From a virus (Duplodnaviria; Caudoviricetes), in the IMG/VR virus record IMGVR_UViG_3300033513_000004, positions 2,053 through 66,052 of that record: a stretch of DNA of 64,000 nt, one strand, 5' to 3'. Shown here piece by piece: positions 1 to 16,150 of the stretch. Both the position numbers and the translations under genes were made by a program. Numbering within the stretch: the first letter of the stretch is position 1; every line of letters begins with the position of its first letter. The notes beneath the pieces are model-generated. The model did not search any database and was not told the DNA's origin. It saw only the letters and a program-made list of their open reading frames with translations.

Positions 1-174
1 GCTCTGGATGAGAAGATCGCAAGACATCTCGCCAAGCACAAGGGTAAGATCCCGCAGGCGAAGGTTGCTGGAAAGTCTGCCCCAACTCCCGGAACTCCTG
101 TATCAAAGGTTCCCAAGGGTAAGGAGCAAGATGCCGCGTTCTGGAGAGAGCGGGCAGCGAGGCTCATGCCCTAG
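1..174 (+). CDS. C-terminal end of probable capsid scaffolding protein (partial)
   Basis: Frame 1 is open from base 1 (ALDEKIARHLAKHKGKIP...DAAFWRERAARLMP*). It has a Pro/Lys linker and a short terminal helix directly upstream of the capsid gene. Confidence 0.5.
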   Translation, partial: ALDEKIARHLAKHKGKIPQAKVAGKSAPTPGTPVSKVPKGKEQDAAFWRERAARLMP

Positions 175-189
175 GGTTAGGGGTTTCAC

Positions 190-1491
190 ATGGCTACAGG
201 TGCGTTTGAAGACATCACAGCAGGGCTGAAGAATGTCTACCCTCAGAAGGCTATCGAGCCGATGGTCAATGAGGAGAGGCCGTTCACCCGAAAGCTCTCG
301 AAGAATATCCCCAGTGGCGCAAGGGTCACTCAGGGCATTCTGAAGTTCGGGGCTAATCTCAATCCTCCGCAGAACGTCGGTCAGCACGTTGACGGGGACA
401 ACCTCCCCGTTCCGAAGGACCGGACCCAGGATCAGTTTACGATGACTCCCACACTGTTCTCTGGGACCTTCCAGATCGGCTGGCTGACTCGCAGGGCTGC
501 CAACAGCAACACCTCGGCATTCAACGGTGGTGAGCTTCGTCGCAGGACGGAGGAAACCATCGCCGACACCGGGAAGTTCATCGAGCAGCACTACTGCGGT
601 ACTCACAACTCCGGGAGGCGGGCAGTTGTTCTCGCCGATGGGGTCAACACCTTCACGGTGGACAAGCCCTGGATGGCACTCCTGCTTCGGGAGAACTTCT
701 ACATCAGCGTCAGGACCACGGATGGTGGGGACACCGTTCGAGACTCCTGCGACTATCGTAAGATCACCGCCATCAACCACACCACTTCCACTGTCACCTA
801 CGACGGTGCGAACCAGGCTCTGGTTGCCGGGGATCACGTTCATGTCGTCACCAAGGCTGCCCAGACCGGGCTGACCTCCACGGGTGCTACCCAGGGAGTC
901 TCGGCTAACGGCCTTCGAGGGTTGGTTGACGATGCGACCTACTCGACCTACATCCATGGCCTGTCCAGGACCACCTATCCCAAGCTCAAGTCCAACGTCA
1001 AGGGCAATGCTGGGACGCTTCGGGACCTGACCGAGCAGATCCTGGTCAACGCCTGCCACGAGAACCGTCACCGCTCCGGCAAGCGAGTCACCGACGCTTG
1101 GTGCAACACGGGCCAGGCTGAGAAGTACATCGAGTTCGTCTCCCCCGACCGTAGATACCTGCAACAGGGTTCTGCGATCACTCCGATGGCTACCGGGTAT
1201 CAGGAGGACTCGCTGGTCCACTTCGCCCCGGGTGCCAAGTTCAACCTCAACATCGCTGTGGACATCATTCCTCGGGAGATCTTCCTGCTGAACTGGTCCA
1301 CTTTCTTCCACTACATTGCTCAGGATCTGGACTGGTGGGATGAGGGTGCCATGCTGAAGCCGGTCCCCACGGATGGTGGATACAAGGCTGCGTACTTCGC
1401 CGCTATGTGTGCCATGGAGAACATCGGTTGCGATATGCCCATCGGGAATACCGTCATCCGGGATCTCAGTGACCCTCTCTGCGGTGACTAG
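190..1491 (+). CDS. major capsid protein (HK97-fold, inferred)
   Basis: 433 aa with strongly biased codons. Position in portal-scaffold-capsid order, sequence character of phage coat proteins, and a hairpin after the stop. Confidence 0.85.
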   Translation: MATGAFEDITAGLKNVYPQKAIEPMVNEERPFTRKLSKNIPSGARVTQGILKFGANLNPPQNVGQHVDGDNLPVPKDRTQDQFTMTPTLFSGTFQIGWLTRRAANSNTSAFNGGELRRRTEETIADTGKFIEQHYCGTHNSGRRAVVLADGVNTFTVDKPWMALLLRENFYISVRTTDGGDTVRDSCDYRKITAINHTTSTVTYDGANQALVAGDHVHVVTKAAQTGLTSTGATQGVSANGLRGLVDDATYSTYIHGLSRTTYPKLKSNVKGNAGTLRDLTEQILVNACHENRHRSGKRVTDAWCNTGQAEKYIEFVSPDRRYLQQGSAITPMATGYQEDSLVHFAPGAKFNLNIAVDIIPREIFLLNWSTFFHYIAQDLDWWDEGAMLKPVPTDGGYKAAYFAAMCAMENIGCDMPIGNTVIRDLSDPLCGD

Positions 1492-1500
1492 TTCGTAATC

Positions 1501-1522
1501 GGGGGGAGGTGATCCTCCCCCC
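1501..1522 (+). terminator. GC hairpin after capsid gene (terminator or mRNA-stabilising stem)
   Basis: ggggggagg-tgat-cctcccccc forms a 9-bp stem. No U-tract follows. Confidence 0.4.
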
Positions 1523-1548
1523 AGTATCCCCAAGAAGGGGGGTTAACT

Positions 1549-2856
1549 ATGATTAAGGGTAGAAACATCGCACTGCCCCTGGATTTCTCTGGTAGACGTC
1601 TTCCAGCGGCAAGTGCAGGGTCGGTTCTGAACTTCGGTACGTCTACGGTTCCACTCGTCTGTGACGATGCCGCAGCGGGGTTCATTGTCGGTTACTTCGA
1701 TTCCGGGGCCACCAGTGGATGGCCCGCAGGCGTGTACTTCAAACTGAATGCCACGGGAGCGGGGGCTAGCTATACAGCCCTTGAGGGAGACCTCACACTC
1801 TCGGCGGCTGCAGTGAATGTGACGGGTATCGAGTGCTTCCTGCAAGTGGCCAGCGGTGGATGCGTTCCGGCTGGAGGTCTGTCTGCTTGTACCGTGACGG
1901 TGGACTTTGCGAACTGTGCTCTCGCTACGGGTGGGGGCTGGTATCGAGGGGCTACCTTCAACATCAAGGGTGAAGGTGGATCAACCGATCCCTCTGGGGC
2001 TCATGTGATCTCGTGTCTGGAGTTGAAGACCGAGGGCACTTGGGGCACGACCTTCGAGTCGTGCGCGGATTCCTTCGCCATCGTGTTCAACGGGTTCACC
2101 AGTGCCGCAGGGACGGGCAAGATCATCTCCAGTTCGGTTCCTGGTGTCCTGTCCGGTCTGGGGGCGGTTCGTGGTGTCAGGGTTGGCGCTAACAACGCAG
2201 CCATCGACACTGCTCCTACGGCGTACTATATCCCACTGATTCCGGCTACCGCATGGACGGCCCTTAGCACCGCGACCCAGATAACCGACAGCACGATCAA
2301 CGGGGTGTTCATCAACCACAGCTTCCTCAGTGCAGCGACATCTGGAGATACGAAGGGTTCGTCTCTTACCCTTGAGGTCACTGGGAGTGGACAGGATTAC
2401 AGCACCTGCAACTACAACTTCCTCTACCTCAACGCTGCCGCCAACGTGGACAACCCCATGGGCGTGGTTGCGGACATGGGATTCGCGACCAACTGCTGGG
2501 TGCAGGGGACCGGAGCTATGTTCGGCTCTTACTGCACTCTGCCCGGGAAGGCCTGCGTAACAGGAACCTGGGGTGGGGTCAACCTGGAATACTACGCTCC
2601 TGCTGGTGGGACGTATGTCTGCGGAGCCCGTCCAACGCTCTTCGGAAGGATTGTTCTGGGCGGTGACGCGACCGCTCTGCATTCCTTGGAAGACAATGCT
2701 GCGTTGCTGAGCCTCGTCGGTGTCACAAATACCACCGGAGGCGAGCTTGTCCACCTGCACGCTCAGGCATACGCCACGGCCAACTACGCTGGGACAATTA
2801 GAATCATAATCAACGGGACTGACTACTTCATCCCGTTCCAGGCTACAGAGGCATAA
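1549..2856 (+). CDS. virion structural protein (head fibre/decoration-like) with two-fold internal repeat
   Basis: 435 aa, G/A/T/S-rich and beta-rich. Both halves end in similar motifs (YYIPLIPAT / YFIPFQAT). Confidence 0.55.
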   Translation: MIKGRNIALPLDFSGRRLPAASAGSVLNFGTSTVPLVCDDAAAGFIVGYFDSGATSGWPAGVYFKLNATGAGASYTALEGDLTLSAAAVNVTGIECFLQVASGGCVPAGGLSACTVTVDFANCALATGGGWYRGATFNIKGEGGSTDPSGAHVISCLELKTEGTWGTTFESCADSFAIVFNGFTSAAGTGKIISSSVPGVLSGLGAVRGVRVGANNAAIDTAPTAYYIPLIPATAWTALSTATQITDSTINGVFINHSFLSAATSGDTKGSSLTLEVTGSGQDYSTCNYNFLYLNAAANVDNPMGVVADMGFATNCWVQGTGAMFGSYCTLPGKACVTGTWGGVNLEYYAPAGGTYVCGARPTLFGRIVLGGDATALHSLEDNAALLSLVGVTNTTGGELVHLHAQAYATANYAGTIRIIINGTDYFIPFQATEA

Positions 2857-2865
2857 GGAGGCTTT

Positions 2866-3159
2866 GTGGAACTAGGAGTTGCTGAGCGGATTATCCTGCT
2901 GAACATCCTGCCGAGAGAGGGGGATCTGACGACTCTGAGAATCGTCAGGGATCTTCAGACCTCCCTCTCGTTTACCGAGGAGGAGCACAAGATCTACAAC
3001 TTCCGGGTGGAGGACAACAAAACCTTCTGGGATAACGACGACAGGAAGGTGGAGATCGGGATCGGCGACAAGGCCATGGGTATCATCAGGGAAGCCATCA
3101 AGCGTGCAACAGCGTTGAGGTACGAATGGCTGCCCCTGTGTGACCGATTCTTGTCGTAG
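2866..3159 (+). CDS. small hypothetical protein, possibly fibre assembly chaperone
   Basis: 97 aa, GTG start with ggagg RBS, directly after a fibre-like gene. Confidence 0.5.
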   Translation: MELGVAERIILLNILPREGDLTTLRIVRDLQTSLSFTEEEHKIYNFRVEDNKTFWDNDDRKVEIGIGDKAMGIIREAIKRATALRYEWLPLCDRFLS

Positions 3160-3174
3160 AGAATAGGTATCCCT

Positions 3175-3888
3175 ATGAGCGACTCGATTCTTCATGGGGC
3201 AATGCCGGAGCCGGACGGGGGTTTATCGACTCCCGTCCGGGACTCTTTCTGGTCTGCCCCCGGTTGGCGAGAGATCGGGATGCAATACTCTTGTGTCCCA
3301 AACGTAGAGACTCCCTGGGACCCAATGGTTCTCAGGGAGATATGGACCTTCGATCCGGGGATCATCCCCATCTGGGTCGATTGGATCTTTCAGTCCCCGG
3401 CGGATGATGCCGGGGGACATCGGTTGGTCAGCTTTGGTCGTCATGCAGTGGGGAGACGGTGCATCGACCCCACCGGGGTAGTGATCCCGGAAGGCATGGT
3501 CAGGATGCCACAGATGCCATGCCAAGGGGTGACATTCGAGACCCCCAACATCCTGATTAGGATCTTCGAGGGGAACAAGGACCCCCAGGATGCCCCCGAC
3601 CTCCCGGGGGAGTTCGTCCCGTTCGACATGAGGATCTACAAGAAGCTCCGAGAGGACTACATCGAGAATATGAGTCTTGGAGACCTCAAGGGGAAGTACA
3701 TCTACGACCCACTTGCCACCAGGGAGAGGCGATCCAAGAAGGTGAAGGAGGAGTGGGACTATCGTATGCGGGACCTAAACGAGTTCGTGACCAAGAAGTT
3801 GGAGAATGTCTCCGACGTGGAGATCAAGGAGCACTTTGGTCGTCTCAAAGAGAGAGCACGAGCAAGAGCGTCTAGGCTTGGCCGATAG
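3175..3888 (+). CDS. hypothetical protein
   Basis: 237-aa ORF with phage-like codon usage in the head gene cluster. Confidence 0.6.
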   Translation: MSDSILHGAMPEPDGGLSTPVRDSFWSAPGWREIGMQYSCVPNVETPWDPMVLREIWTFDPGIIPIWVDWIFQSPADDAGGHRLVSFGRHAVGRRCIDPTGVVIPEGMVRMPQMPCQGVTFETPNILIRIFEGNKDPQDAPDLPGEFVPFDMRIYKKLREDYIENMSLGDLKGKYIYDPLATRERRSKKVKEEWDYRMRDLNEFVTKKLENVSDVEIKEHFGRLKERARARASRLGR

Positions 3889-3940
3889 GCGGTCAATCCG
3901 ACCTGACAAGGAAACTTGTCGAGGATTCGTGAGGTAGATC

Positions 3941-4846
3941 ATGGATAGAGCAGTCAAGGCTACAGGATTGGAGTTCTTCGTTACCCCCAAGGAGTACGTG
4001 TTGCTGAACTCCACCACGGAGGCAGTGAAGCTGGAGGATGCCGGGGAGTGCTTCTGGATTCCACCTCGCAGCAAGATCGTCAGGCAGCATCCCAAGTCCG
4101 CCAGCGATCCACAGTACCGGGAAGTCCCCCACTCCATGATAGGACCCGAGGGTAGGTTGATCCCCGGGACTCTCATCATCAGGGACAAGATTGAGAAGGA
4201 CATCTCTGGGGCTGAGTACGTGAAGTTCAATGCCGCTCTGGCCATCAAGACCAGACTGGGGATCGACCCCGAGACCGGGACCTACACCGGGCCTCTAGCC
4301 ATGCGAGGCATCTCGGTTGTCCCACCGAAGGCCGATCTGGAGACCATCCGCAAGATCGACCGTGAGGGGATCTCCCGGTGGAAGCGGTGGCAGTATCGGG
4401 ATGCCATGGCCATGGTCTGCGCCCACGACTCCAAGAACGCCAAGCGCAAGGCTGCCGGGATGGAGCCACAGCCCAAGGATGACAAGTTGATGAGGGCTGA
4501 GATCCTCCTGAAGCAGTTGGAGGAAGAGGAGAGGGCCAGGCTGGAGAAGGAGTTCACTGAGATATCCCAGGTCCCCGCAGGACTGGAGGATACCGAGTAC
4601 AGCCTGTTCAGCGAGCCGGATTTCCGTGAGAAGGAGGTGGACCTTGCGCCGCCGGTTGAAGAGACCCCGGCTCCTGAGCCGGAGAAGGTTATGGTGGCTA
4701 GTCCTAAGGTGGAGAAGGGCAACCTGATCCCGGAGGAACTCGTCTCCCTGCTGGAGTCCAACCCCAAGGCCATGAAGCTCCTTCGGTCCAAGTACAACAT
4801 CAGGAAGCGCCACTACGATACCAAGAAGGATAGGGTGACTGGATGA
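3941..4846 (+). CDS. hypothetical protein
   Basis: 301 aa, gaggt RBS, ATGA overlap with the next gene. Confidence 0.65.
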   Translation: MDRAVKATGLEFFVTPKEYVLLNSTTEAVKLEDAGECFWIPPRSKIVRQHPKSASDPQYREVPHSMIGPEGRLIPGTLIIRDKIEKDISGAEYVKFNAALAIKTRLGIDPETGTYTGPLAMRGISVVPPKADLETIRKIDREGISRWKRWQYRDAMAMVCAHDSKNAKRKAAGMEPQPKDDKLMRAEILLKQLEEEERARLEKEFTEISQVPAGLEDTEYSLFSEPDFREKEVDLAPPVEETPAPEPEKVMVASPKVEKGNLIPEELVSLLESNPKAMKLLRSKYNIRKRHYDTKKDRVTG

Positions 4847-5535
4847 ATACCAAGAACCTCATCGACAGGCTTCTGCTCTATACAGACAACACCTTGTCAA
4901 CAGACGCCGGGACTACCGTGCGTCGAGTGAAGCACCTGGAGTGGGCTCAGGAAGTGTGGGATGAGGTTTGGCATTACGCCGAGTGGCCCTTTAGCTACAC
5001 TACGACGGGCTCGCCTCTGACAATCCCGGTCAGCCAGGGTTATGTGGCTCTCCCGGCAGGATTCTCCACGTTTGGGGACAGGGGGACCGCATACCTGTCT
5101 ACCGACTATGGGACCCCCATGACAGAGGTGAGCCCCCAACTCATCCAGAGAGCACAGAGATCCACCGGGTCTACGGCTAACCCCACGGAGTTCTGTGTCT
5201 ACATGGCGGACGATGGGCTCCAGCGGTTCCAGGTCCCCACCAACTCCGAAGCCCTCACAGTCTACATCTACTACAAGAAGATACCCCCCACCTTGGTGGA
5301 CATCGACCATGCCACGACTAGCATGCTCCAACACATCCCCGCTGCCTACCATTACTCGGTGCTGCTGGCTGGGTGCAAGGAGAAGGCTGCCAGGTCCAAG
5401 GGGGATGCCAGGGCCTCCAGTGAGTGGGCAGGTGTGTACCAGAGTGCCCTAGCCAAGATGGTCCAGAAGGAACTGTCCAACCGCTACAAGAGCAGCATTC
5501 ATCGCCTGGGACGGGCTACAGTCGGTATGTGGTAA
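4843..5535 (+). CDS. head-tail adaptor protein (P22 gp4-like, inferred)
   Basis: 230 aa with helical ends and a central beta region. Pattern W..V...AEWPF / IP..YH..LL.G is typical of phage adaptors. Position fits. Confidence 0.6.
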   Translation: MNTKNLIDRLLLYTDNTLSTDAGTTVRRVKHLEWAQEVWDEVWHYAEWPFSYTTTGSPLTIPVSQGYVALPAGFSTFGDRGTAYLSTDYGTPMTEVSPQLIQRAQRSTGSTANPTEFCVYMADDGLQRFQVPTNSEALTVYIYYKKIPPTLVDIDHATTSMLQHIPAAYHYSVLLAGCKEKAARSKGDARASSEWAGVYQSALAKMVQKELSNRYKSSIHRLGRATVGMW

Positions 5536-5546
5536 GGAGATAACCC

Positions 5547-6332
5547 ATGAAGAAGGTCTTGATTGGCGCGTTTTTGGCTGGATTGCTCCTAGCCACTCCG
5601 GTTATGGGGCAAGAGAACCCCCAGGCGTACTTTGCCCTGCGGTACGACCTGGACGCTACTGCCATCACCTACTGTAGGTGTGAGGGAGTAGATGGCAACC
5701 CTTTTGGAGCCCCCATGCCCGTGGAGTACCTCGTGGACAATGGAGGCTCGTCTACTGCAGTTACGTCTGCGACCGCTGGGCAGCCTGTGTTCGCAGGTAT
5801 GGCGAGAGGAGACGTGATCTTCATCTCGATTGGAGGGGTCCTCTACCCACGAGGGATCGTTACCTATACCGACTCCGAGAATATCGTGGTGGACGAGGCT
5901 ATCGACCTATCAGCCGCAGACTATCCTATTACCTGGAAGAAGAACAACTGTGGAACCGCCGTCACCTCCGGGTGGATCTCTACTGCCGGGCTAGAGCAGG
6001 CGACTGTGGGGTTCTTCGTCAAGCAGTTTGTGGGGGATACCAATGGGCTGGATGTACGCATTGAGGGTACAGTTGTAACTGCTGATGGTACAACCAACGT
6101 AGTCCAATTGTGGCCCTCCGGGAAGACCGTTGCAGGCGCTGCAACAGTTCAGTCCTTCAGCACTGGAGGAGTGGACCCAACCGCCGGGATCACCTCGAAC
6201 CTCTTTGTCAACATCACCGCAGCAGTGCAGGAAGTCCGGGTTGGGATGTTCCACAACACCGCCGATGATGGCAATGACCTGACTACCAATGCTGAGGAGA
6301 TCACGGTTATCCTGTTTGGGCTGAGGAAGTAA
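5547..6332 (+). CDS. tail-region protein with Sec signal peptide
   Basis: 261 aa. N-terminus MKKVLIGAFLAGLLLATPVMG|QE, followed by a beta-rich mature part. Confidence 0.6.
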   Translation: MKKVLIGAFLAGLLLATPVMGQENPQAYFALRYDLDATAITYCRCEGVDGNPFGAPMPVEYLVDNGGSSTAVTSATAGQPVFAGMARGDVIFISIGGVLYPRGIVTYTDSENIVVDEAIDLSAADYPITWKKNNCGTAVTSGWISTAGLEQATVGFFVKQFVGDTNGLDVRIEGTVVTADGTTNVVQLWPSGKTVAGAATVQSFSTGGVDPTAGITSNLFVNITAAVQEVRVGMFHNTADDGNDLTTNAEEITVILFGLRK

Positions 6333-6333
6333 C

Positions 6334-8595
6334 ATGAAGAGACTAATTGGAGTTCTCATATTCCTGCTCGCTGCCCCTGCCTACGCCCAGTTGGAGTGTG
6401 CCTCGGTAGACGGGGTTGGCTGCGCCGGGGGTGCTGGAAGCACTAATGTCGCTGCCGACTACGATTGGACTGGGCTACATACCTTCCCCGTGGACAAGCT
6501 CAGTTGGGGTGGGGCCATCCAAGCCCTGAACTCCTGCTGGCTGACTACCGGGGGGTTCACCTGTGAGGGAGCCACTGCAAACGACTTCGAGACCAGGATT
6601 GTAGTCACCGATCCCTTTGCAGATACGACCTTCACCATCGGACCTAGCCCAGATGGGAATCCCTGGATTGGGGCCACAGCCGGGGATAGCGCAGCGGCTA
6701 CCGAGGTAGATAATGTCTTCATAGGATCTGCCGCAGGGACAGCCGCGTCCAGTACTTCCACCGATAACACTTGTGTGGGGGATAATGCCTGTCTTGCGGT
6801 GACCACTGGAGATCAGAACACCGCCGTTGGGTCCGGTGCCGGTGGGACCACCACAACCGGGAGTTATAACACCCAGTTCGGTTACAGTGCCCTGACCAAA
6901 GAGGTGGGCACCGCTGGTGGTACAGCCATTGGGAACACCACCATTGTTGGGGATAATGCTGTAGCTGTGGGCTATGGAGCCGAGGCTTACGCTGGGAGTG
7001 TCTCTATCGGTACTGGGGCCGGAGATGCCGCTGCTGCTGTGGATGTCAACAATGTGTTCATCGGGGACCAGGCTGGTGGGGCGGCATCCGGTACCTCTAC
7101 CGACAATACGTGCGTAGGAGATATCGCCTGTACGGGAATGACAACCGGGGACCGCAACATCTGCTTGGGGCAGAACTCTTGCGCCGGTCTCACCACAGGT
7201 GGGAGCAACCTCTTCATCGGAGTGGATTCTACTGCCATTACTACCTCCGCCCAGAACGTGGTGATTGGGGATGGGAACATAGCTTATGGGAATACTGGTG
7301 TGGCTATCGGCTATGGGGCGGATGTCTCGGATGGGGTGGCCATTGGATACCAGGCCGGGGATGCTGTTGCAGCGGTTGATGTGGACAATGTCTTCATCGG
7401 GAACTCTGCTGGAACTGCTGCTAACGGGACATCAACTGACAACACCTGCGTTGGTGACACTGCATGCGACTCCCTCACCACGGGCGATCAGGTCGTAGTG
7501 ATCGGCGCTGATGCAGACTTGGTTGGAGCCGGCGACTCTGCGGTTATAGTCATTGGAGCCGAAGCCAAGGGTGGAAACTCGGGTGGGGTTACGATTGGTA
7601 CAAGCGCTGGGTCGGCACTCGTGGCCGGGGCGGACTACAACACGCTTGTTGGGCATAGGGCAGGGGCGGCGATGAACAACACTGGGGCTGACAACAACAC
7701 CTGCTTCGGCTACCAGGCGTGTGCCTCGGTGACATCTGGCGACAGCATCACAGCCGTAGGTTCCGGTGCTGCATCAACTACGATTACAACCGGAACCGAT
7801 GACGTATTCATTGGTCGCCAGAGCGGCTTGGGTACAGCTACCACTACCTCTAACACAGTGATTATTGGTGCCGGTGCTGGGGCGAACATAGATGGTTCTA
7901 CCAATACATGCGTAGGTTCTGGCGCATGTGACGACGTAACCGCAAACAATTCGTGCCTCGGGTTCAATTGCTTTGGTGCTGATGCCACCAATACGTTCGA
8001 CAACAACACTGGAGTGGGGACGGAGTCTGGAGAGATATTCGCAGACGACAGCGATAGCAACATCTGCGTAGGCTACCAAGCCTGTGGCGTCGGGACCTCT
8101 GCGTCTGTTACCTATGACAACACAACCACCATTGGGTCCATGGACCCAAAGGGTAGCAACTCCATTCTGCTCGGGTTCGGCACGCAGGAGCACTACTTCC
8201 ACCAGGGGACCGCAAAGGCGTTGACCGAGAGCACCGACACCCCCATTGTTCGCATTAGTGTGGCGCAGGGCGCTGCCGGGATGGTGGGAGCGGTCATCGA
8301 GTGGACGGTGGTCGCTTCGGATGGGACCGACCACCAGACCTTGACCGGGATTACACAACTCAACGCCATCAACAAGGCTGGCACGGAGACTTGCACCGCA
8401 GAAACTTTGGGCGGGACTGCCGAGGCTTCCAGTTCCGGTACGCTCGCCATGGAAGACGCACCGGACTGCGTGAGTAGTGTTGCGGACACGGTGGACTTCC
8501 AACTTGACATGGTGTCGAGCCTGACGCAGACCACACTGAATGCCTACTACACGATCCGGGTCATGGGTCCGGCCACGACGATAACTCCTCAGTGA
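6334..8595 (+). CDS. tail fibre/adhesin-like beta-roll repeat protein with Sec signal peptide
   Basis: 753 aa. MKRLIGVLIFLLAAPAYA|Q. Repeated NxxIG/NTxVG..AG units as in trimeric adhesin heads and phage fibres. 22 Cys. Confidence 0.75.
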   Translation: MKRLIGVLIFLLAAPAYAQLECASVDGVGCAGGAGSTNVAADYDWTGLHTFPVDKLSWGGAIQALNSCWLTTGGFTCEGATANDFETRIVVTDPFADTTFTIGPSPDGNPWIGATAGDSAAATEVDNVFIGSAAGTAASSTSTDNTCVGDNACLAVTTGDQNTAVGSGAGGTTTTGSYNTQFGYSALTKEVGTAGGTAIGNTTIVGDNAVAVGYGAEAYAGSVSIGTGAGDAAAAVDVNNVFIGDQAGGAASGTSTDNTCVGDIACTGMTTGDRNICLGQNSCAGLTTGGSNLFIGVDSTAITTSAQNVVIGDGNIAYGNTGVAIGYGADVSDGVAIGYQAGDAVAAVDVDNVFIGNSAGTAANGTSTDNTCVGDTACDSLTTGDQVVVIGADADLVGAGDSAVIVIGAEAKGGNSGGVTIGTSAGSALVAGADYNTLVGHRAGAAMNNTGADNNTCFGYQACASVTSGDSITAVGSGAASTTITTGTDDVFIGRQSGLGTATTTSNTVIIGAGAGANIDGSTNTCVGSGACDDVTANNSCLGFNCFGADATNTFDNNTGVGTESGEIFADDSDSNICVGYQACGVGTSASVTYDNTTTIGSMDPKGSNSILLGFGTQEHYFHQGTAKALTESTDTPIVRISVAQGAAGMVGAVIEWTVVASDGTDHQTLTGITQLNAINKAGTETCTAETLGGTAEASSSGTLAMEDAPDCVSSVADTVDFQLDMVSSLTQTTLNAYYTIRVMGPATTITPQ

Positions 8596-8608
8596 TAAGG
8601 AGAGTCTG

Positions 8609-9040
8609 ATGAAGAAGCTACTGTTTGTATTGCTCGTTCTGGGGCTTGCGACTGCTGCATCCCCTGCTGAAATCTGCATTACCAATACCCCAAACATCTG
8701 CGTGACGACTACGACTGAGGAGAACACCGCAGGTCTCTATTATCAGACCGCCTACGATGACAACCTCTGCACTACAGTGAACCTCCCATCTGGATGCTCT
8801 CTCGCCGAGTACACCGCTGCGGGGGGAACGGAGACCTTCTATGCTCGCACCGCTTCCGGGGCCAAGCAGTTCTTCATGGATATGGTCATCAAGGAGGCAT
8901 TGACAAGGTTCGTCTCCAGCTACAACGTCGAGTTGGACTCCCGAGCTAAGCATATCTGGAATCACGAGTTGACCTCTGAGCAGAAGAGCACCACCTGCGT
9001 CAGTTGGGGCAAGACCTCCGAATGTAAGCCAATCAGCTAG
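8609..9040 (+). CDS. small secreted Cys-paired protein
   Basis: 143 aa. MKKLLFVLLVLGLATAASPA|E. Six Cys in three close pairs. Confidence 0.6.
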   Translation: MKKLLFVLLVLGLATAASPAEICITNTPNICVTTTTEENTAGLYYQTAYDDNLCTTVNLPSGCSLAEYTAAGGTETFYARTASGAKQFFMDMVIKEALTRFVSSYNVELDSRAKHIWNHELTSEQKSTTCVSWGKTSECKPIS

Positions 9041-9047
9041 AACGCAT

Positions 9048-9347
9048 ATGCCCAGCAAAGCCACTACGAAGCGCCTCGGATACTACGTGGGGGTCCTTGC
9101 GCTCCCAGACTACTTGAGTGGGAGATATGCGTTAAGCAAGAACCCCAGAGCGCTGGAGTGGAACCCCCTTCAACAGAACGACGCGACTGCCATTGCCACG
9201 CAGATTGCTACGGCGTTGGCGTGTGCTGGACTTGAAGGGAAGGCTGCGAAGAAGCACCCGAATCTTGCGAAGGGGATCAGGATCGGGGCGACGGGCCTGA
9301 AGGCGCTCGCCATTGCCGTCAACATCCGGAATGCGAACAGAAAATGA
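9048..9347 (+). CDS. hypothetical basic/amphipathic protein
   Basis: 99-aa ORF filling the gap ahead of the lysis genes. Confidence 0.45.
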   Translation: MPSKATTKRLGYYVGVLALPDYLSGRYALSKNPRALEWNPLQQNDATAIATQIATALACAGLEGKAAKKHPNLAKGIRIGATGLKALAIAVNIRNANRK

Positions 9348-9359
9348 CGGGGGGCAAGA

Positions 9360-9725
9360 ATGGACTGGATTGCGCTATTACCGCACGAGGGGGCCGCATA
9401 CATTGCATTGACCTTGGCCTGTGCTCTCTACCTGCTGGGGATTCATTATCACCTGTGGAGAATGCCGGATTTGCTTTCCGAGTGGGCAGAGGAGAAGACC
9501 CAGGATCTGCGGGGCCGACTTAGGAGAGTCGAGGAGGAGATGAAAATGCATGCTGGGCTTGAGCCGCGCATTATCAAGGTGGAAACGCGAGCTGAAGGAC
9601 TAGCGACGCGCTTCGATGAGGCTGTTGGACGCTTGGAGAAGCGGCACGACATGGCGGATCTAAAGCTGAACGATATCTCCGAGACGCTGAATCGGATTGT
9701 TGGGCGTCTAAACGGGAAGGGCTGA
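9360..9725 (+). CDS. membrane protein with coiled coil (holin/antiholin-like)
   Basis: One N-terminal TM segment plus a heptad coiled coil, directly upstream of the endolysin. Confidence 0.45.
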   Translation: MDWIALLPHEGAAYIALTLACALYLLGIHYHLWRMPDLLSEWAEEKTQDLRGRLRRVEEEMKMHAGLEPRIIKVETRAEGLATRFDEAVGRLEKRHDMADLKLNDISETLNRIVGRLNGKG

Positions 9726-9749
9726 TTCTGAAGGCGGAGGTGAAGCGCG

Positions 9750-10349
9750 ATGAACCCAGCAAGTTCGTTCGAAGACGCTTTCCAATGGATTCTTGAAGCC
9801 GAGGGGCCGGACACGAATGACCCGGACGACCCAGGCGGTCTGACGCGGTTCGGCATCGCCCAGAAGCGACATCCTGAGGTGGACGTTGCGACCCTCACCG
9901 AGGAGGACGCCAAGAGGATCTACCGCGAGCAGTATTGGGACCAGATTCACGGTGACGAGCTTCCCCCGGTGCTGGCGCTGGTCGTGTTCGACGGCGCTGT
10001 GGTCCAAGGGGTAGGGCGGTCGATCTTCTGTCTTCAGGAAGCTCTCGGAGTCGAGACGGATGGATTGGTAGGACCGAAGACGGTTGCTGCTGCCTTCGAG
10101 CAGGGGCTAGGGGTGCTGACGAAGTTCCTGAGCCTGAGGGCTCATGCGTACATGGATCTGGTCATTAGAAAGCCCGTTATGCTGAAGTACCTCAAGGGCT
10201 GGATTGGACGCCTGATCCGAGTCCGGCAGAGGGCGCTCCGACTATGGGGCGACTCGCAGACTTCCCACTTCTACCAGGAGGCATGTACCTGTGCTGACAC
10301 CGGAACAGTTGTGGACAGCCAAAATCCTAGCATTGATCCTGATCTCTAG
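9750..10349 (+). CDS. endolysin, glycoside hydrolase family 108 with PG-binding C-terminal domain
   Basis: EGPDTNDPDDPGGLTRFGIAQ matches the GH108 EGGxxxxxxDxGGxTxxGI motif. Also YWDQIHGDELP, VFDGAVVQG and YLKGWIGR. Confidence 0.85.
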   Translation: MNPASSFEDAFQWILEAEGPDTNDPDDPGGLTRFGIAQKRHPEVDVATLTEEDAKRIYREQYWDQIHGDELPPVLALVVFDGAVVQGVGRSIFCLQEALGVETDGLVGPKTVAAAFEQGLGVLTKFLSLRAHAYMDLVIRKPVMLKYLKGWIGRLIRVRQRALRLWGDSQTSHFYQEACTCADTGTVVDSQNPSIDPDL

Positions 10350-10539
10350 CTGGGGAATCGCCTGCGTGGGCCTCTTGTGGCTGGAGTGGAAGACCCTCTC
10401 TGACTCGCACCGGGATAACCACATTACAGCAGTGGTCAAGAGACTTCTCCAGGAGGAGTCGGCCAGGGGACCGATCTTCGGGCTGCTGTTCGCTATCGTC
10501 GGTATGACTGCGTTCATCTTCGGACATCTATTCTGGTGA
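10291..10539 (+). CDS. two-TM membrane protein (lysis-associated?)
   Basis: 82 aa, GTG start, two hydrophobic helices, overlaps the endolysin 3' end. Confidence 0.45.
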   Translation: MLTPEQLWTAKILALILISSWGIACVGLLWLEWKTLSDSHRDNHITAVVKRLLQEESARGPIFGLLFAIVGMTAFIFGHLFW

Positions 10540-10542
10540 TCT

Positions 10543-10842
10543 ATGAGCATAGTAGGGTGGATTAAACTGTGGTGGGCTGCCAGGAAGGCAGTCAATACCT
10601 TGGAGAAGGAGTTACCCGTGTACGACAAGAGAAAGACGATTCTGAAGGGCCTGTGGGGGTTGCTGATCGGAGTGGTTGCTGTGGCGGCTCAGGCCGGGGC
10701 CGGGTGGCTGGCCGACTCCGATACCGTCATGGGGGTTCTTGCGGCTGCCGGACTGGACAAGGATGTCATCTCAGGGGTGACACCCATCGTGGTGGCCCTT
10801 GCCCTGATGCTGAAGAACTGGCTTAGCAATCGAGGGAAGTAA
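10543..10842 (+). CDS. putative holin
   Basis: 99 aa with 2-3 hydrophobic segments and a basic C-terminus, beside the endolysin. Confidence 0.5.
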   Translation: MSIVGWIKLWWAARKAVNTLEKELPVYDKRKTILKGLWGLLIGVVAVAAQAGAGWLADSDTVMGVLAAAGLDKDVISGVTPIVVALALMLKNWLSNRGK

Positions 10843-10847
10843 CCTCG

Positions 10848-11132
10848 ATGAAGCCCCTCGGTGAGGACTACAGGCGCACCTTCATCGTCCCTGGGGTTAC
10901 TGCTCAGGGACGCTGGGGAGGTGTGCGTCTTGACGGTCCCACCACAGCCATCCCAGACGGACAGTTCAGGTGGCTGCAAAACACCAGACGCGAAGGGAAT
11001 GAGGTTGTTGTCCGAGGAGGAGAGAGCAAGGCTACATCCGCCCTCTCCGGGACCGAGATAACCGGGATCTACCAGTCCACAGACGGAGACATCGAAGTCT
11101 CCCCCAAGATCATCTACTTCAGGGAGGTATGA
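10848..11132 (+). CDS. stand-alone N-terminal segment of tail nozzle/hub protein
   Basis: 94 aa. WGGVR...IPDGQF..LQN.R...RGG, paralogous to the first ~90 aa of the next ORF. Confidence 0.6.
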   Translation: MKPLGEDYRRTFIVPGVTAQGRWGGVRLDGPTTAIPDGQFRWLQNTRREGNEVVVRGGESKATSALSGTEITGIYQSTDGDIEVSPKIIYFREV

Positions 11133-12655
11133 TGAAGAAGCCACTGGCCCCAGGGTTCAACCGCAAGGAGTTCTACCCAGGGGTTACTGTCGAGGGGGAT
11201 TGGGGTGGAATGCGTAAAGAGGGGTCCACCTCGGAGATCCCCGATCTACAGTTCAGCCACCTCCAGAATGTCAGGAGAGGGTCTGGAGAGCTTGAGATCA
11301 GAGGGGGACAGAGCAAGGCTAACTCAGTGGCTCTCTCCGGGACTGAAGTGACTGGTATCTATCAGGATACCGAGATGGATGTTGGTGGAGCGAGGGTTTA
11401 TTATATGCAAGAGACCATTACACCAGGGGTTGCTAGCTTTTTCGTCCCCAAGAGGACGGCTGGGGCTAATGGTTGCATAGAGTGGAATGGGGTGACCAAG
11501 ACTCCTAGTATTGTCTTGTCATGGCCTACCCTCCCGACTGTAGCCACCCCAAGCGTGTCTGCAAAGGTTGGGAATACGATTGTGATAGTGACCAATGGCA
11601 GCGACTGGGTAGCTCCAAACTACCGTTGGTACATCATCCATAGGACTGACGCAGGTATGGGAGTCAGCCCATTGACGTTGATGCACACCGAACTTACTGG
11701 GACCAGGAGCAGTTCTGGTTACTCTGCATCCTACCTTTCTTCTGGGAACATAGCAGTTATCGGCAATAACGCTTGGTTCGGACAGCCTGAAAGTGGCACT
11801 GGACAGAGATGGACCAGGGTGTTCAACTGGGATCTAGTTACTGCAACCTTTGAAGAGACCATTGATTGGACTACCTTGGGGTGGGCTAGTGGGAATCAAT
11901 TGGTAACTACCATTGGAACTAAGGGTACTACCCTTATCGCTGCTCACACTAGGTATGACTCTGGGCAACCCATTCCATACCTGATGTCCTTCCGTACCAG
12001 GAGTGCTGGTGGTGTCTGGTCGGCGGTAGCTACTCCAGCTGAGTTAGTAGGGGCAGGTCTTGGATTCCATGCCTTCTGTGCAGTGGAATATGGGGCAGAT
12101 ACCTACATTGGTGGGGCAGCCTACAGGTCTGGAGGACCGTTTGCCTATGCTACCCCGACCATCTACAAGTGGAATGGTACGACCTTGACACTGGCTAGGG
12201 AACTCACTACCGGAGTGCGTAACCCGAACCTGGTATCTGGTAACATCAGGCAGGCAATAACCCAAATGATTTCCTACGGGGGCAAACTCTGGTATTTCTA
12301 CGACAAGAATACTGGGGGCCTTCTGGCTTACGACTACCATCCCTGCATTGGATCATTTGATGGAAGCACTTGGACCGACGTGGCAGTCAACCTCAACACC
12401 AAGGTCTATCATGCCGACCCAGCAGGGACCCTTGACCCAAAGTTCTTCTCCGCCGCATTCATTGGGTATGACAACCTGATGTACGCCCTTCTCAAGGATG
12501 ACCCACGGAGAGTGGTAAATGGGAACTTAATCAGAGCCAGCACTTCTGACCCTACTGGGGCATGGACTGTTGAAAAGTCGGCATGGGATGCCGATGCTTG
12601 GGATGTTACTAGCTTTGAGTACGCTCCTGGGCATGGGATTGAGATATATCCCTGA
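11129..12655 (+). CDS. nozzle N-terminal segment fused to beta-propeller-like domain
   Basis: 508 aa. N-terminus aligns with the preceding ORF. The rest is Trp/Tyr/Gly/Thr-rich blade-like repeats (YGADTYIGG, YGGKLWY, IYKWNGTT). Confidence 0.6.
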   Translation: MMKKPLAPGFNRKEFYPGVTVEGDWGGMRKEGSTSEIPDLQFSHLQNVRRGSGELEIRGGQSKANSVALSGTEVTGIYQDTEMDVGGARVYYMQETITPGVASFFVPKRTAGANGCIEWNGVTKTPSIVLSWPTLPTVATPSVSAKVGNTIVIVTNGSDWVAPNYRWYIIHRTDAGMGVSPLTLMHTELTGTRSSSGYSASYLSSGNIAVIGNNAWFGQPESGTGQRWTRVFNWDLVTATFEETIDWTTLGWASGNQLVTTIGTKGTTLIAAHTRYDSGQPIPYLMSFRTRSAGGVWSAVATPAELVGAGLGFHAFCAVEYGADTYIGGAAYRSGGPFAYATPTIYKWNGTTLTLARELTTGVRNPNLVSGNIRQAITQMISYGGKLWYFYDKNTGGLLAYDYHPCIGSFDGSTWTDVAVNLNTKVYHADPAGTLDPKFFSAAFIGYDNLMYALLKDDPRRVVNGNLIRASTSDPTGAWTVEKSAWDADAWDVTSFEYAPGHGIEIYP

Positions 12656-12664
12656 GGTACTCCA

Positions 12665-13570
12665 ATGGCTTGGTGGCTCTACTACTACGACGACGACAAG
12701 AAGACCAGCGACTTCACTGCCGATCCATTCTTCAGGGAGCCTCACGTCACTGGGGTTGTCCCGACATCAAACTATCTACTCCACACAGATGGGTTGCTCT
12801 ACTCTGGTGGGTACATTGGAACTGCCGCCACTGGATACCTGGTCCAGTGGAGACCCCCAGGATCTCAGTTGGTCCTGTCGGGAGTCACCGCCATAAGGCA
12901 CATTGTCTCGTGGAGTGGCTCTCTCTGGTTCGTATCGTGGGATGGGGCAGCCCAAGGTACGCTCCACAAGTGGGATGGAGTTACTCTTTCCACCAAGGAC
13001 TCCACCGGGATACTCACCCTTCCCAAGTTGATAGCCACCAGGGACTCCATAGTGATGGCATTCGCTGGGACCGGGAATGTCATCAGGAGGTACTCGCTCA
13101 CTGCCGGGACTGCCTCCAACTTGGCAATGCCTGGGACTACCTTTGGAGTCACTAACTACGCCTCCTACGAGCAGTTGGTAGAGTACAAGGGTAAGGTCTA
13201 CATCTTTGGCACCGACTCTACCGGGGCTACGATCTACTCGGTGGATGGGACTACAGTGGCGGTGGCCAGAACGGGTCTGGCAGGGACTGCCCGGACTCTG
13301 GCAGTGTTCAACGGATACCTCTACTACCTAGTAGGGAGCTATCTCGGTAGATACAATGGTGCAGCCTGGGACGATACCCACAGCGATGTCTCGGCTCTCA
13401 CCCCGAAGAGACTGGTCCAGTACAAGGGGAATCTCCTGTTGTTCGACTCTACGGCAGTCCACAAGTCCAGTGGGACCGACACTACGACATGGACCGCTAC
13501 CGCCAGTACATCCACTACCGACGCCCACCCAGGCCAGGCCCCAGGTGATGTCTTCTACGGAGTCTACTGA
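12665..13570 (+). CDS. beta-propeller-like tail protein
   Basis: 301 aa with blade motifs WSGSLWF, YKGKVYI, FNGYLYY, YKGNLLL and HKWDG/RYNG. Confidence 0.6.
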   Translation: MAWWLYYYDDDKKTSDFTADPFFREPHVTGVVPTSNYLLHTDGLLYSGGYIGTAATGYLVQWRPPGSQLVLSGVTAIRHIVSWSGSLWFVSWDGAAQGTLHKWDGVTLSTKDSTGILTLPKLIATRDSIVMAFAGTGNVIRRYSLTAGTASNLAMPGTTFGVTNYASYEQLVEYKGKVYIFGTDSTGATIYSVDGTTVAVARTGLAGTARTLAVFNGYLYYLVGSYLGRYNGAAWDDTHSDVSALTPKRLVQYKGNLLLFDSTAVHKSSGTDTTTWTATASTSTTDAHPGQAPGDVFYGVY

Positions 13571-15318: not shown

Positions 15319-15346
15319 ACTGTTGTGTCATAATACCTAACGTAGG

Positions 15347-16141
15347 TTGGAGGCATCCATGGTTTACCAGCTACCAAGCGTACCAATGACATCGTCCCAG
15401 AGACCTATTCCTGGGATGCCTGCGAGCTACCGTCAGGGTGGGGAAGCTTACCAACGGGCGGTTGGAAGGGGAGGACCGTCTACCATCCCTGGTAGTGTTG
15501 GGCAGTATGGGAGTGCTTCTCAGGCCCCCAATGTGAACATCACTGCCCAGAGAGACCCCCAATTGGATGCCCTTCTGGGGCAGCAGCAGCAGTTTGCTGG
15601 GCAGATCGGGTCCCAGTCCGGGGAGATATTCGATGCCGCCAGAGCAGGGATGGATCAGCAGGTGGCTGGTCTGGGGAATGCTGCGGTCCTCAGTGCTCTC
15701 CAGCGTGGTGGGGGTGTGGGTGCCGCTCAGGGCAGAGCGGGAGAGGTTGGGGCTCTGGCCAGATCCCAGGCTGCCAATGCATTGAGAGTCCCGCTGCTGG
15801 GACTGCAACAGCAGGCAATCAACTCCCAACTCCCTACGATCACAGGGCAACTTGGACAGATGCAGGCAGAGAAGGGGATTGGGCTCCAGGCTGCCGGACT
15901 CCAGCAGAATTGGGCGCAGATGAACCAGCAGGCTCAGATGCAACAGGCCCAGTTGGCGGCACAGCAGCAGCAGGCCCTTCTTTCTGCCACTGCCAACATG
16001 CCCCAGAACGTGGCATCGAATTACAGACCTGCTGCTGCAACGAGACCAACCTCAGCTTCAAGCAGGTATGGTGCTGCACCATCCGGTAGAACTCGACCAT
16101 CCAGTTCTAGAAGGGGTGGTCCTAGCAGTGGTCTTGCATAG
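15347..16141 (+). CDS. DNA ejection (pilot) protein
   Basis: 264 aa, Q/A/G-rich helical low complexity, located after the tail genes. Confidence 0.6.
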   Translation: MEASMVYQLPSVPMTSSQRPIPGMPASYRQGGEAYQRAVGRGGPSTIPGSVGQYGSASQAPNVNITAQRDPQLDALLGQQQQFAGQIGSQSGEIFDAARAGMDQQVAGLGNAAVLSALQRGGGVGAAQGRAGEVGALARSQAANALRVPLLGLQQQAINSQLPTITGQLGQMQAEKGIGLQAAGLQQNWAQMNQQAQMQQAQLAAQQQQALLSATANMPQNVASNYRPAAATRPTSASSRYGAAPSGRTRPSSSRRGGPSSGLA

Positions 16142-16150
16142 GAGGCTATC

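What the first reader, a model, noticed from the sequence alone, without database searches (positions are those of the whole stretch)
5547..9040. Three consecutive tail-module genes encode classical Sec signal peptides
Directly after the head-tail adaptor, the 261-, 753- and 143-aa proteins each start with MK(K/R), a hydrophobic core and a small-residue cleavage site (PVMG|Q, AYA|Q, SPA|E). Tailed-phage virions assemble in the cytoplasm, so fibre-like proteins normally lack signal peptides. Inference: these are exported, fold in the periplasm and join the particle at or after lysis, or they decorate the host envelope. Either would be an unusual extracytoplasmic assembly route.
Basis: partly seen in the sequence, partly recalled or inferred. 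Interest (0 to 1): 0.82.

Follow-up and report, generated by a model that had tools for sequence, protein, structure and literature searches.

The report
Phage tail fibres carrying export signals
In an uncultured 66-kb short-tailed phage, the three genes that sit where its relatives keep their long tail fibres all start with conserved bacterial export signals and carry paired cysteines, so this fibre-like gear very probably folds outside the cytoplasm in which the rest of the particle is built; whether it then joins the particle is untested.

Summary
ORFs 5547-6332 (A, 261 aa), 6334-8595 (B, 753 aa) and 8609-9040 (C, 143 aa) follow an SU10-type adaptor. Each has a strong ribosome-binding site and a short Sec/signal-peptidase-I-type leader.

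- **Leader conservation:** the leader is kept in all 25 A homologues, with the -1 and -3 rule met in 25 of 25. It is also kept in all 7 full-length close B homologues and all 13 C homologues.
- **Cysteines:** they come in pairs that are present or absent together.
- **Natural control:** two related phages encode an A orthologue that starts exactly at the predicted mature end. It has no leader and no cysteines.
- **Gene order:** it matches phage SU10 (adaptor, long tail fibres, lysis genes, nozzle, ejection proteins), so the block fills the long-tail-fibre slot.

Export is well supported, at about 0.85. The destination is open. My odds are about 0.4 that these are fibres added to particles when lysis merges the compartments, about 0.38 that they are exported non-virion proteins, and about 0.12 that there is no effective export.

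I found no paper describing this route. This scan has noted the same pattern on more than 300 other genomes, and later checks there priced the bold reading at about 10%. I verified that cultured Cellulophaga phage phi10:1 carries leader-bearing proteins annotated as MS/MS-detected structural proteins.

The parts
4843..5535 (+). Head-tail adaptor (230 aa), SU10 type. It is the upstream neighbour and the presumed fibre dock.
   Evidence: Pfam PF24175 SU10_adaptor, E 1.9e-14, covering profile positions 1-185 of 194. The same gene precedes the leader block in L001-L004 and L007.
5547..6332 (+). Protein A (261 aa). Residues 1-21 (nt 5547-5609) are the leader, with predicted cleavage at VMG|Q. The mature part is a jelly-roll beta-sandwich (residues 22-54 and 133-261) with an inserted beta domain (55-132). 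C43 and C135 are a conserved pair.
   Evidence: 25 homologues all carry a leader. AlphaFold2 model has pLDDT 83. C43/C135 are both present in 23, both absent in 2 and singly present in 0. Leaderless, Cys-free orthologues occur in L006 and L008 (hhalign probability 98.9%).
6334..8595 (+). Protein B (753 aa). Residues 1-18 (nt 6334-6387) are the leader, with cleavage at AYA|Q. A G/A/T/N-rich repeat body carries 22 Cys in 11 short-range pairs, mostly C-x5-C. A conserved C-terminal domain spans residues 627-753 (nt 8212-8592).
   Evidence: PHROG tail spike E 6e-14 and virion structural protein E 1.5e-13, on the repeats only. Cys map. The C-terminal domain is shared by 9 position-2 proteins of 430-825 aa. 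Leader-bearing relatives have C-x5-C pairs; 95 leaderless relatives have a median of 0.
8609..9040 (+). Protein C (143 aa). Residues 1-20 (nt 8609-8668) are the leader, with cleavage at SPA|E. The mature part is a beta hairpin plus long helices, with 6 Cys in three C-x7/8-C pairs.
   Evidence: 13 homologues all carry a leader. Model has pLDDT 85 with no fold match at Z 5 or above. Pair 23/31 is both present in 8, absent in 6, singly present in 0; 54/63 are invariant. There is no lipobox.
9048..9725 (+). Two small ORFs between the block and the endolysin: 99 aa of unknown function (9048-9347) and 121 aa with one N-terminal membrane helix plus a coiled-coil tail (9360-9725; holin-associated or i-spanin-like).
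   Evidence: Sequence inspection. No family hit. Analogous TM plus coiled-coil ORFs follow the leader block in L001-L004, L006 and L008.
9750..10349 (+). Endolysin (GH108 plus PG_binding_3) with no leader of its own.
   Evidence: Pfam E 1.1e-21 and 1.7e-8. PHROG endolysin E 1.9e-43.
10291..10842 (+). Two small multi-TM ORFs (82 and 99 aa), candidate holins.
   Evidence: Hydrophobic segments seen in the translations. Position is as for SU10 gp14 holin. No family hit.

Best explanation
A, B and C are the long-tail-fibre module of an SU10-like podophage that has been moved to the periplasm.

1. They are made late, from the same operon as the capsid and tail genes.
2. Short Sec leaders take them across the inner membrane, and signal peptidase I cuts them after VMG, AYA and SPA.
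3. They fold there with disulfide bonds: one pair in A, eleven in B, three in C.
4. Heads with adaptor and nozzle are completed, without fibres, in the cytoplasm.
5. When the holin opens the inner membrane and the endolysin removes the wall, the two compartments merge. The pre-folded fibres then dock on the adaptor as the last assembly step.

Shown here: the leaders, their conservation, the cysteine pairing pattern, and the fibre-slot synteny.
Inferred: export itself (odds about 0.85), disulfide formation, and above all the docking at lysis.

The polarity of B (variable front and middle, constant C-terminal domain) suggests that its C-terminus is the end that engages the constant partner, which could be A, C or the adaptor.
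For: - **Slot.** SU10 runs adaptor gp11, long tail fibre gp12 and gp13, holin, lysis protein, short fibre, nozzle, needle, ejection proteins. The window runs adaptor, A, B, C, small TM ORFs, endolysin, holin-like ORFs, nozzle pieces, ejection proteins. So the lysis genes next door are the ancestral layout and not evidence of a lysis role.
- **Fibre kinship of B.** B hits PHROG tail spike and virion structural families. Distant relatives carry the S74 fibre chaperone domain.
- **Variability pattern.** The position-2 protein varies among relatives: 147-1137 aa, some with Laminin_G_3 domains. A is as conserved as the adaptor: 38/39/66/37% identity against 34/35/63/30%.
- **Operon context.** No promoter or terminator excess in the region, and gaps of 1-13 nt, so the block is part of the late operon and not a separately transcribed insert.
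- **No alternative fibre.** No other late ORF matched a fibre family.
- **Sister clade.** A leaderless, Cys-free A orthologue sits right after the adaptor, while B and C keep their leaders.
- **Same pattern elsewhere.** Three leader-bearing proteins follow the adaptor in another SU10-like lineage, L007.
- **Cultured example.** Cellulophaga phage phi10:1 gp091-gp094 have such leaders and are annotated 'structural protein, experimental MS/MS proteomics'.
- **From established knowledge.** Fibres and tailspikes are the last parts added to podophages and can be added in vitro (P22, T4, T7 complementation).
Against: - No tailed phage is known to assemble any virion part outside the cytoplasm, so the prior is low.
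- Neither A nor B shows sequence similarity to SU10 gp12 or gp13, or a recognisable N-terminal virion anchor.
- A is globular, not fibrous.
- B has the opposite polarity to classical fibres.
- The MS/MS annotation in phi10:1 says nothing about processing, and envelope contaminants cannot be excluded.
- Later checks of sister findings in this scan priced the virion-joining reading at about 10%.
- There is no experiment and no host for this phage.
Confidence: 0.4

Rival explanations
1. The three proteins are exported but never become part of the virion. They are late accessory proteins that act in the periplasm or envelope, or are released at lysis. Possible roles are receptor masking or decoy adhesins that keep progeny from sticking to debris, envelope or outer-membrane weakening that assists lysis, or surface remodelling. 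The true receptor-binding parts would then be the nozzle-associated propeller proteins.
For: - The leaders and paired cysteines place them in a different compartment from assembling particles.
- PBSX XepA is a phage late protein encoded next to holin and lysin that is exported and absent from particles (PMC6834076). XepA and YomS are the top structural matches of A's jelly-roll: Z 8.4 with rmsd 3.2 over 99 residues, and Z 8.2.
- From my own knowledge, lambda Lom and T5 Llp are leader-bearing non-virion proteins encoded among tail-fibre genes.
- Matrishin et al. read leader-bearing phage genes as host-surface modifiers (PMC10367356).
- Nozzle-linked propeller ORFs (508 and 301 aa) could serve as receptor binders (note e1-5911767).
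Against: - The XepA match stands less than 1 Z unit above dozens of unrelated jelly rolls.
- The block occupies the fibre slot of a conserved tail module, is co-transcribed, and takes 3.5 kb. A is as conserved as the adaptor.
- No outer-membrane anchor, T9SS C-terminal domain, lipobox or enzyme domain was found that would give an envelope function.
- The phage would be left without any recognisable fibre although its adaptor is of the fibre-docking type.
Confidence: 0.38
2. The N-terminal hydrophobic segments are not used for export, or only part of the pool is exported. The fibres assemble in the cytoplasm as usual, and the segment serves as a transient membrane tether, a folding or trimerisation aid, or is removed by a phage protease.
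For: - Matrishin et al. suggest that predicted leaders on phage capsid proteins are removed by the prohead protease.
- A has an internal Met at residue 20 that could start a leaderless form.
- No trained predictor or experiment was available.
Against: - The -3/-1 rule holds in 25 of 25 A homologues, with Gln at +1 in 16. n-h-c anatomy is kept in three unrelated families while the leader sequence drifts.
- Cysteine pairs are present or absent together, and both leader and cysteines are lost together in L006 and L008.
- Leaderless fibre relatives lack the C-x5-C pairs.
- B and C have no internal start near the cleavage site.
Confidence: 0.12
3. Chance or annotation artefact: wrong start codons or spurious ORFs give leader-like N-termini.
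For: None found.
Against: - There are strong ribosome-binding sites before each ATG.
- Homologues have the same starts.
- Models are confident.
- Only one other leader-like ORF occurs in the genome.
Confidence: 0.01

Closest known systems
Long tail fibre of Escherichia phage SU10 (Kuravirus): gp12 proximal and gp13 distal proteins docking on adaptor gp11 (PMC9509320; KM044272)
   Same: Same gene slot in the same module order: adaptor, fibre genes, holin and lysis genes, short fibre and nozzle, ejection proteins. The adaptor is of the same Pfam family.
   Different: gp12 and gp13 have no leader and only 2-3 Cys in more than 700 aa. They show no detectable sequence similarity to A, B or C. A is a small globular protein, not a 786-aa fibre.
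Leader-bearing 'structural proteins' gp091-gp094 of cultured Cellulophaga phage phi10:1 (KC821618)
   Same: A run of consecutive late proteins at the distal end of the tail module. Each has a K/R-rich start, a hydrophobic core and an A|Q or G|Q site, and the run is followed by lysis genes including a GH108 enzyme. The record annotates them as detected by MS/MS proteomics.
   Different: It is a siphovirus of a Bacteroidota host, with no sequence relation to this phage and few cysteines. The record does not say whether the leaders are removed or where on the particle the proteins sit.
Bdellovibrio bacteriovorus mosaic adhesive trimer (MAT) fibres (PMC10769870)
   Same: These are phage-tail-fibre-type trimeric fibres made with a signal peptide and working outside the cytoplasm. 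They come in subfamilies with and without the S74 chaperone. This shows that such fibres can fold after Sec export.
   Different: They are cellular proteins of a predator, displayed on its own surface and not encoded in a virion operon. In MATs the constant domain directly follows the leader; in B the constant domain is C-terminal.
PBSX XepA and SPbeta YomS (PMC6834076)
   Same: XepA is a late-operon protein next to holin and lysin that is exported and absent from particles. Its beta-sandwich is the best structural match of A's jelly-roll (Z 8.4 and 8.2).
   Different: The host is Gram-positive and the assembly is pentameric. The match is not clearly above unrelated jelly rolls. XepA is listed among proteins secreted without a classical signal peptide (title and context of PMC1266369; not read in detail).
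Classical tail fibres with a C-terminal S74 intramolecular chaperone (PF13884)
   Same: They share the G/A/T/N-rich repeat body with B (E 1e-12 to 1e-38).
   Different: They have leaderless N-terminal virion anchors, an S74 domain that B lacks, and almost no C-x5-C pairs.
Known leader-bearing phage proteins: T4 antiholin RI (PMC8385771), secretory endolysins, o-spanins, lambda Lom, T5 Llp (the last four from my own knowledge)
   Same: These are phage-encoded, Sec-dependent proteins, and some are encoded among tail or lysis genes.
   Different: All are small regulators, enzymes, lipoproteins or outer-membrane proteins. None is fibre-like or occupies a fibre slot. C has no lipobox, so it is not an o-spanin or Llp-type lipoprotein.

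Membership tests
Sec / signal peptidase I (type I) signal peptide | Positively charged n-region | tested here: met
   There are 2 K/R in residues 2-3 of A, B and C. At least 1 K/R is present in all 47 family members examined.
Sec / signal peptidase I (type I) signal peptide | Hydrophobic h-region of about 7-15 residues, shorter than a membrane anchor | tested here: met
   The uncharged run after the last N-terminal K/R is 15-18 residues in A, B and C, including the c-region (family medians 16-17). The maximum 9-residue hydropathy is 2.4 or more in all 25 A homologues.
Sec / signal peptidase I (type I) signal peptide | Small uncharged residues at -3 and -1 of the cleavage site | tested here: met
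   In the A family, -1 is A/G in 25 of 25 and -3 is V/A/C in 25 of 25. B has AYA|Q and C has SPA|E.
Sec / signal peptidase I (type I) signal peptide | Positive call by a trained predictor (SignalP or similar) | not testable with these tools
   No such predictor was offered.
Sec / signal peptidase I (type I) signal peptide | Experimental cleavage and periplasmic location | not testable with these tools
   The phage is uncultured and has no relatives in the phage, IMG/VR or GTDB collections.
Lipoprotein (signal peptidase II) leader, such as o-spanin or Llp-type | Lipobox L-[ASTVI]-[GAS]-C with Cys at +1 | tested here: not met
   The first Cys of C lies at +3 after A-E-I. The residues before Cys in homologues are E/D followed by I/V/L, and six homologues lack that Cys altogether.
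SU10-type long tail fibre (gp12/gp13) | Genes directly downstream of an SU10-type adaptor and upstream of the lysis and nozzle genes | tested here: met
SU10-type long tail fibre (gp12/gp13) | Sequence or profile similarity to gp12 or gp13 | tested here: not met
   BLASTP gave no hit better than E 0.8. There were no PDB sequence hits for A or B.
SU10-type long tail fibre (gp12/gp13) | Physical docking on the adaptor | not testable with these tools
Trimeric autotransporter adhesin (YadA type) | YadA_head or stalk repeats recognised by Pfam | tested here: not met
   Pfam gave no family for B even at E up to 10. The resemblance rests on the eye and on an Atlas cluster only.
Trimeric autotransporter adhesin (YadA type) | C-terminal YadA_anchor beta-barrel | tested here: not met
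   No Pfam or NCBIfam hit. The C-terminal domain of B matches viral protein clusters in the Atlas instead.
S74-chaperone tail fibre or tailspike (PF13884) | C-terminal Peptidase_S74 domain | tested here: not met
   It is absent from B and from its close leader-bearing relatives, but present in many distant leaderless relatives.
T9SS cargo | C-terminal Por_Secre_tail or type B sorting domain | tested here: not met
   No Pfam or NCBIfam hit in A, B or C.
XepA/YomS lytic-cassette proteins | Shared C2-like beta-sandwich fold standing clearly above other folds | tested here: inconclusive
   Z 8.4 (rmsd 3.2, 99 residues aligned) and Z 8.2 were the top two scores, but many unrelated jelly rolls scored Z 7-7.8.

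The most novel reading that the evidence does not exclude
The last step of tailed-phage assembly is extracytoplasmic in this lineage. The long tail fibres are Sec-exported, trimmed by signal peptidase I, disulfide-stapled in the periplasm, and snapped onto finished cytoplasmic particles only in the seconds when holin and endolysin merge the two compartments. The junction between the cytoplasmic and periplasmic parts shifts between sister clades: A is inside the cell in L006 and L008, and outside in this phage.
Probability: 0.35. Interest if true: 0.85.

Novelty: new variant of a known kind. Interest (0 to 1): 0.62.

Why it matters
Textbook tailed-phage assembly is wholly cytoplasmic. If receptor-binding fibres can mature in the periplasm, several things follow:
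- Fibres can use disulfide bonds and other periplasmic modifications.
- Fibre attachment becomes coupled to lysis.
- Host-range engineering and heterologous production of such fibres would need export.
- Genome annotation that discards leader-bearing late genes as inserted non-virion or envelope genes would miss the receptor-binding proteins of many uncultured phages.

Even on the rival reading, a conserved 3.5-kb set of exported fibre-like proteins in the middle of a virion operon would be an undescribed class of late accessory proteins.

This instance adds a clean natural control (leader and cysteine pair lost together in orthologues) and an anchor to a structurally solved tail, that of SU10.

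Tried and rejected
- So there is no binding test, no sample type and no expression data.
- **No cultured or catalogued relatives.** megablast and tblastn against 50,697 phage records found nothing; the capsid gave one weak hit. IMG/VR scans found nothing. GTDB genome scans found nothing, so there is no prophage copy and no host.
- **Fused forms of A.** None was found. This is weak evidence.
- **Fold searches.** Foldseek of A against the PDB gave only weak hits, TM 0.3 or lower. C had no fold match at Z 5 or above. PDB sequence searches for B, the 508-aa and 582-aa proteins and the adaptor found nothing useful.
- **B's C-terminal domain against A.** No similarity (hhalign probability 0.1%).
- **C as o-spanin or Llp-type lipoprotein.** Rejected, because it has no lipobox.
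- **B as a trimeric autotransporter or T9SS cargo.** No family hit.
- **Separately transcribed insert.** No promoter or terminator excess, and gaps of 1-13 nt.
- **Bacteroidota host.** Gln at +1 in 16 of 25 A leaders resembles the Q-rule (PMC10653852). But 19 of 27 late genes have Shine-Dalgarno motifs, and the -33/-7 Bacteroidota promoter pattern has 0 matches. The host phylum is left open.
- **O-glycosylation sequons.** D[ST][AILVMT] sequons are not enriched in A or C, and are modest in B at 8.
- **Atlas look-alikes.** These gave only unnamed viral clusters.


Full report
**What the window is.** The window is 64 kb of a single-contig 66,052-bp phage genome. Its + strand late operon encodes, in order:
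- a major capsid protein (190-1491, PHROG 14242);
- several unassigned proteins;
- an SU10-type head-tail adaptor (4843-5535, Pfam E 1.9e-14);
- the three ORFs of the finding, A, B and C;
- two small ORFs;
- a GH108/PG_binding_3 endolysin (9750-10349);
- two holin-like ORFs;
- a split nozzle set (94, 508, 301 and 582 aa);
- putative ejection proteins, including one of 2741 aa.

**Observation.**
- A (5547-6332), B (6334-8595) and C (8609-9040) are real ORFs with GGAG-type ribosome-binding sites. The gaps to their neighbours are 1-13 nt.
- Each begins M-K-K/R, followed by an uncharged stretch of 15-18 residues and a site with small residues at -3 and -1. None has a lipobox.
- In a crude ORF scan of the whole genome, only one other ORF has such an N-terminus.
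- There is no promoter or terminator excess in 1-16500, so the block is not a separately transcribed insert.

**Are the leaders real?** I had no trained predictor, so I used conservation.
- All 25 homologues of A, down to 27% identity, keep a leader. In the alignment column before the predicted cut, every sequence has A or G. Two columns earlier every sequence has V, A or C. The next column is Gln in 16 of 25.
- Leader identity is no higher than mature identity (0.41 against 0.42), while hydropathy stays high in all 25.
- All 7 full-length close homologues of B and all 13 homologues of C have leaders too.

**Cysteines.**
- B has 22 Cys, all in short-range pairs, eight of them C-x5-C inside the repeats. 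C has three C-x7/8-C pairs.
- The 2741-aa ejection protein and eight other late proteins have no cysteine at all.
- In the A family, C43 and C135 are both present in 23 sequences, both absent in 2, and never present singly. In the C family, pair 23/31 is present in 8, absent in 6, and never present singly.
- Among relatives of B, the 16 with a leader have a median of 1.5 C-x5-C pairs. The 95 without a leader, many of them S74-type tail fibres, have a median of 0.

**A natural control.**
- Two related phages (L006, L008) encode, directly after their adaptor-like gene, a 201/205-aa protein homologous to A (hhalign probability 98.9%, E 1.5e-17).
- Its alignment starts at residue 4 of that protein and residue 25-26 of A, three to four residues past the predicted cleavage site after residue 21.
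- It has no leader and no cysteine. Both C43 and C135 are replaced.
- The next two genes in those phages, which are B-like and C-like, keep leaders and 10-20 and 6 Cys respectively.
- Leader and disulfide pair are therefore gained or lost together. This is what is expected if the leader works. I put export at about 0.85.

**What the proteins are.**
- *A:* the model has pLDDT 83. It is a jelly-roll beta-sandwich with an inserted beta domain. The best structural matches are XepA (Z 8.4, rmsd 3.2, 99 residues) and YomS (Z 8.2), but many unrelated jelly rolls follow at Z 7-7.8.
- *B:* its repeat body hits PHROG tail spike and virion structural families and many S74-type fibres. Pfam sees no YadA head, anchor or any other family, even at E 10.
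- *B's C-terminal domain:* residues 627-753 are conserved in nine position-2 proteins of 430-825 aa whose middles differ. The Atlas finds the same fold in several viral clusters (TM 0.68-0.73, a lead only).
- *C:* the model has pLDDT 85. It is a hairpin plus long helices, with no fold match at Z 5 or above.

**Context decides the slot.**
- In SU10, whose tail is solved, the adaptor gp11 offers six docks for long tail fibres made of gp12 and gp13. The genes run gp11, gp12, gp13, holin, lysis protein, short fibre, nozzle, needle, ejection proteins.
- The window has the same order, with A, B and C in the place of gp12 and gp13. The neighbouring lysis genes are therefore ancestral layout, not evidence that the block serves lysis.
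- SU10 gp12 and gp13 have no leader and 2-3 Cys, and no sequence similarity to A, B or C.
- In relatives L001-L004 the adaptor is followed by the A orthologue and then one to three more leader-bearing proteins of very different size, some with Laminin_G_3 domains. TM ORFs, an endolysin and the nozzle come next.
- In L003 the leader-encoding start of the second gene lies one frameshift away from the 1137-aa ORF.
- A more distant SU10-like phage (L007, with SU10_portal and SU10_adaptor) has three leader-bearing proteins after its adaptor.
- A is as conserved as the adaptor.

**Mechanism and odds.**
- *Fibre reading, 0.40.* I favour this narrowly. The block is the long-tail-fibre module, matured in the periplasm and added to finished particles when lysis merges the compartments. 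Fibre or tailspike addition is the last step in podophage assembly and works in vitro (established knowledge), which makes a late, post-membrane step feasible.
- *Non-virion reading, 0.38.* The proteins are exported but stay off the particle. This rests on the compartment logic, on XepA (exported, not in particles; PMC6834076) and on Lom/Llp-type precedents.
- *No effective export, 0.12.*

**Known and new.**
- I found no paper describing leader-bearing tail fibres of tailed phages.
- Matrishin et al. noted leaders on capsid, spanin and unknown genes of Porphyromonas phages.
- Caulton et al. showed that fibre-type proteins with leaders work on the Bdellovibrio surface.
- This scan has noted the same pattern before, in more than 350 notes on at least 322 other genomes. 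Later checks there kept the observation but priced the virion-joining reading at about 10%.
- Following a lead from those notes, I verified that cultured Cellulophaga phage phi10:1 gp091-gp094 have such leaders and are annotated as structural proteins from MS/MS proteomics. This is suggestive. It says nothing about processing or contamination.

**Host.** The host is unresolved. Gln at +1 resembles the Bacteroidota Q-rule. But Shine-Dalgarno motifs precede 19 of 27 late genes, and the Bacteroidota promoter pattern is absent.

Noticed in passing
window 57569-58222 (-): A 217-aa Trypsin_2 peptidase (Pfam E 1e-8) has an uncharged hydrophobic N-terminus resembling a signal-anchor-release (SAR) domain. 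In relatives (L001, L002 and an NCBI contig) the equivalent gene sits inside the lysis cassette after the leader block. Here it lies 48 kb away on the other strand.
   Followed up: partly
window 34584-35792 (-): This 402-aa ORF is the only other leader-like N-terminus in the genome (MRVLILSSVLILGLRGC..., possibly a lipoprotein), with a Pro/Glu-rich repeat (weak Trypan_PARP hit). A 405-aa Trypan_PARP-hit ORF precedes the Trypsin_2 gene in a related contig.
   Followed up: partly
L003 10756-11036: In a related phage, the second gene's leader-encoding start (MKKALAALLLLTGVVWA...) overlaps the stop of the A orthologue. It is in a different frame from the 1137-aa Laminin_G_3 ORF that follows. This is either a sequencing frameshift or a real one.
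   Followed up: partly
L007 5553-6023: In another SU10-like phage, the 156-aa gene directly after the major capsid protein (the slot of SU10's Ig-like gp10) also has a Sec-type leader and 6 Cys. Leaders there may extend to a head-decoration-like protein.
   Followed up: no
L016 6539-7636 (and L017): A 365-aa leader-bearing protein has a C-terminal half homologous to A. It sits between a 1072-aa ejection-type protein and a holin-like ORF plus an M15-type endolysin, in a differently organised phage.
   Followed up: partly
window 10848-12655: The 94-aa ORF repeats the N-terminal segment of the following 508-aa nozzle-like protein (shared motif G.WGG.R..G....IPD.QF..LQN.RR). The same N-terminal motif opens the 413-462-aa nozzle-like proteins of relatives.
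   Followed up: no
window 5547-9040 and homologues: Gln is the first mature residue in 16 of 25 A leaders and 5 of 8 B leaders, as in the Bacteroidota Q-rule. Yet the genome uses Shine-Dalgarno sites heavily (19 of 27 late genes) and lacks Bacteroidota-type promoters. The preference for Gln at +1 is unexplained.
   Followed up: partly
window 1549-2856 (+): The 435-aa protein after the capsid gene has 12 Cys (2.8%) but no leader, and no family hit. This cytoplasmic late protein is as Cys-rich as B, so Cys content alone is not diagnostic.
   Followed up: no
window 9360-9725 (+): This 121-aa ORF has one N-terminal membrane helix and a long coiled-coil tail, like an i-spanin or holin partner. No lipoprotein partner (o-spanin) was seen nearby.
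   Followed up: no
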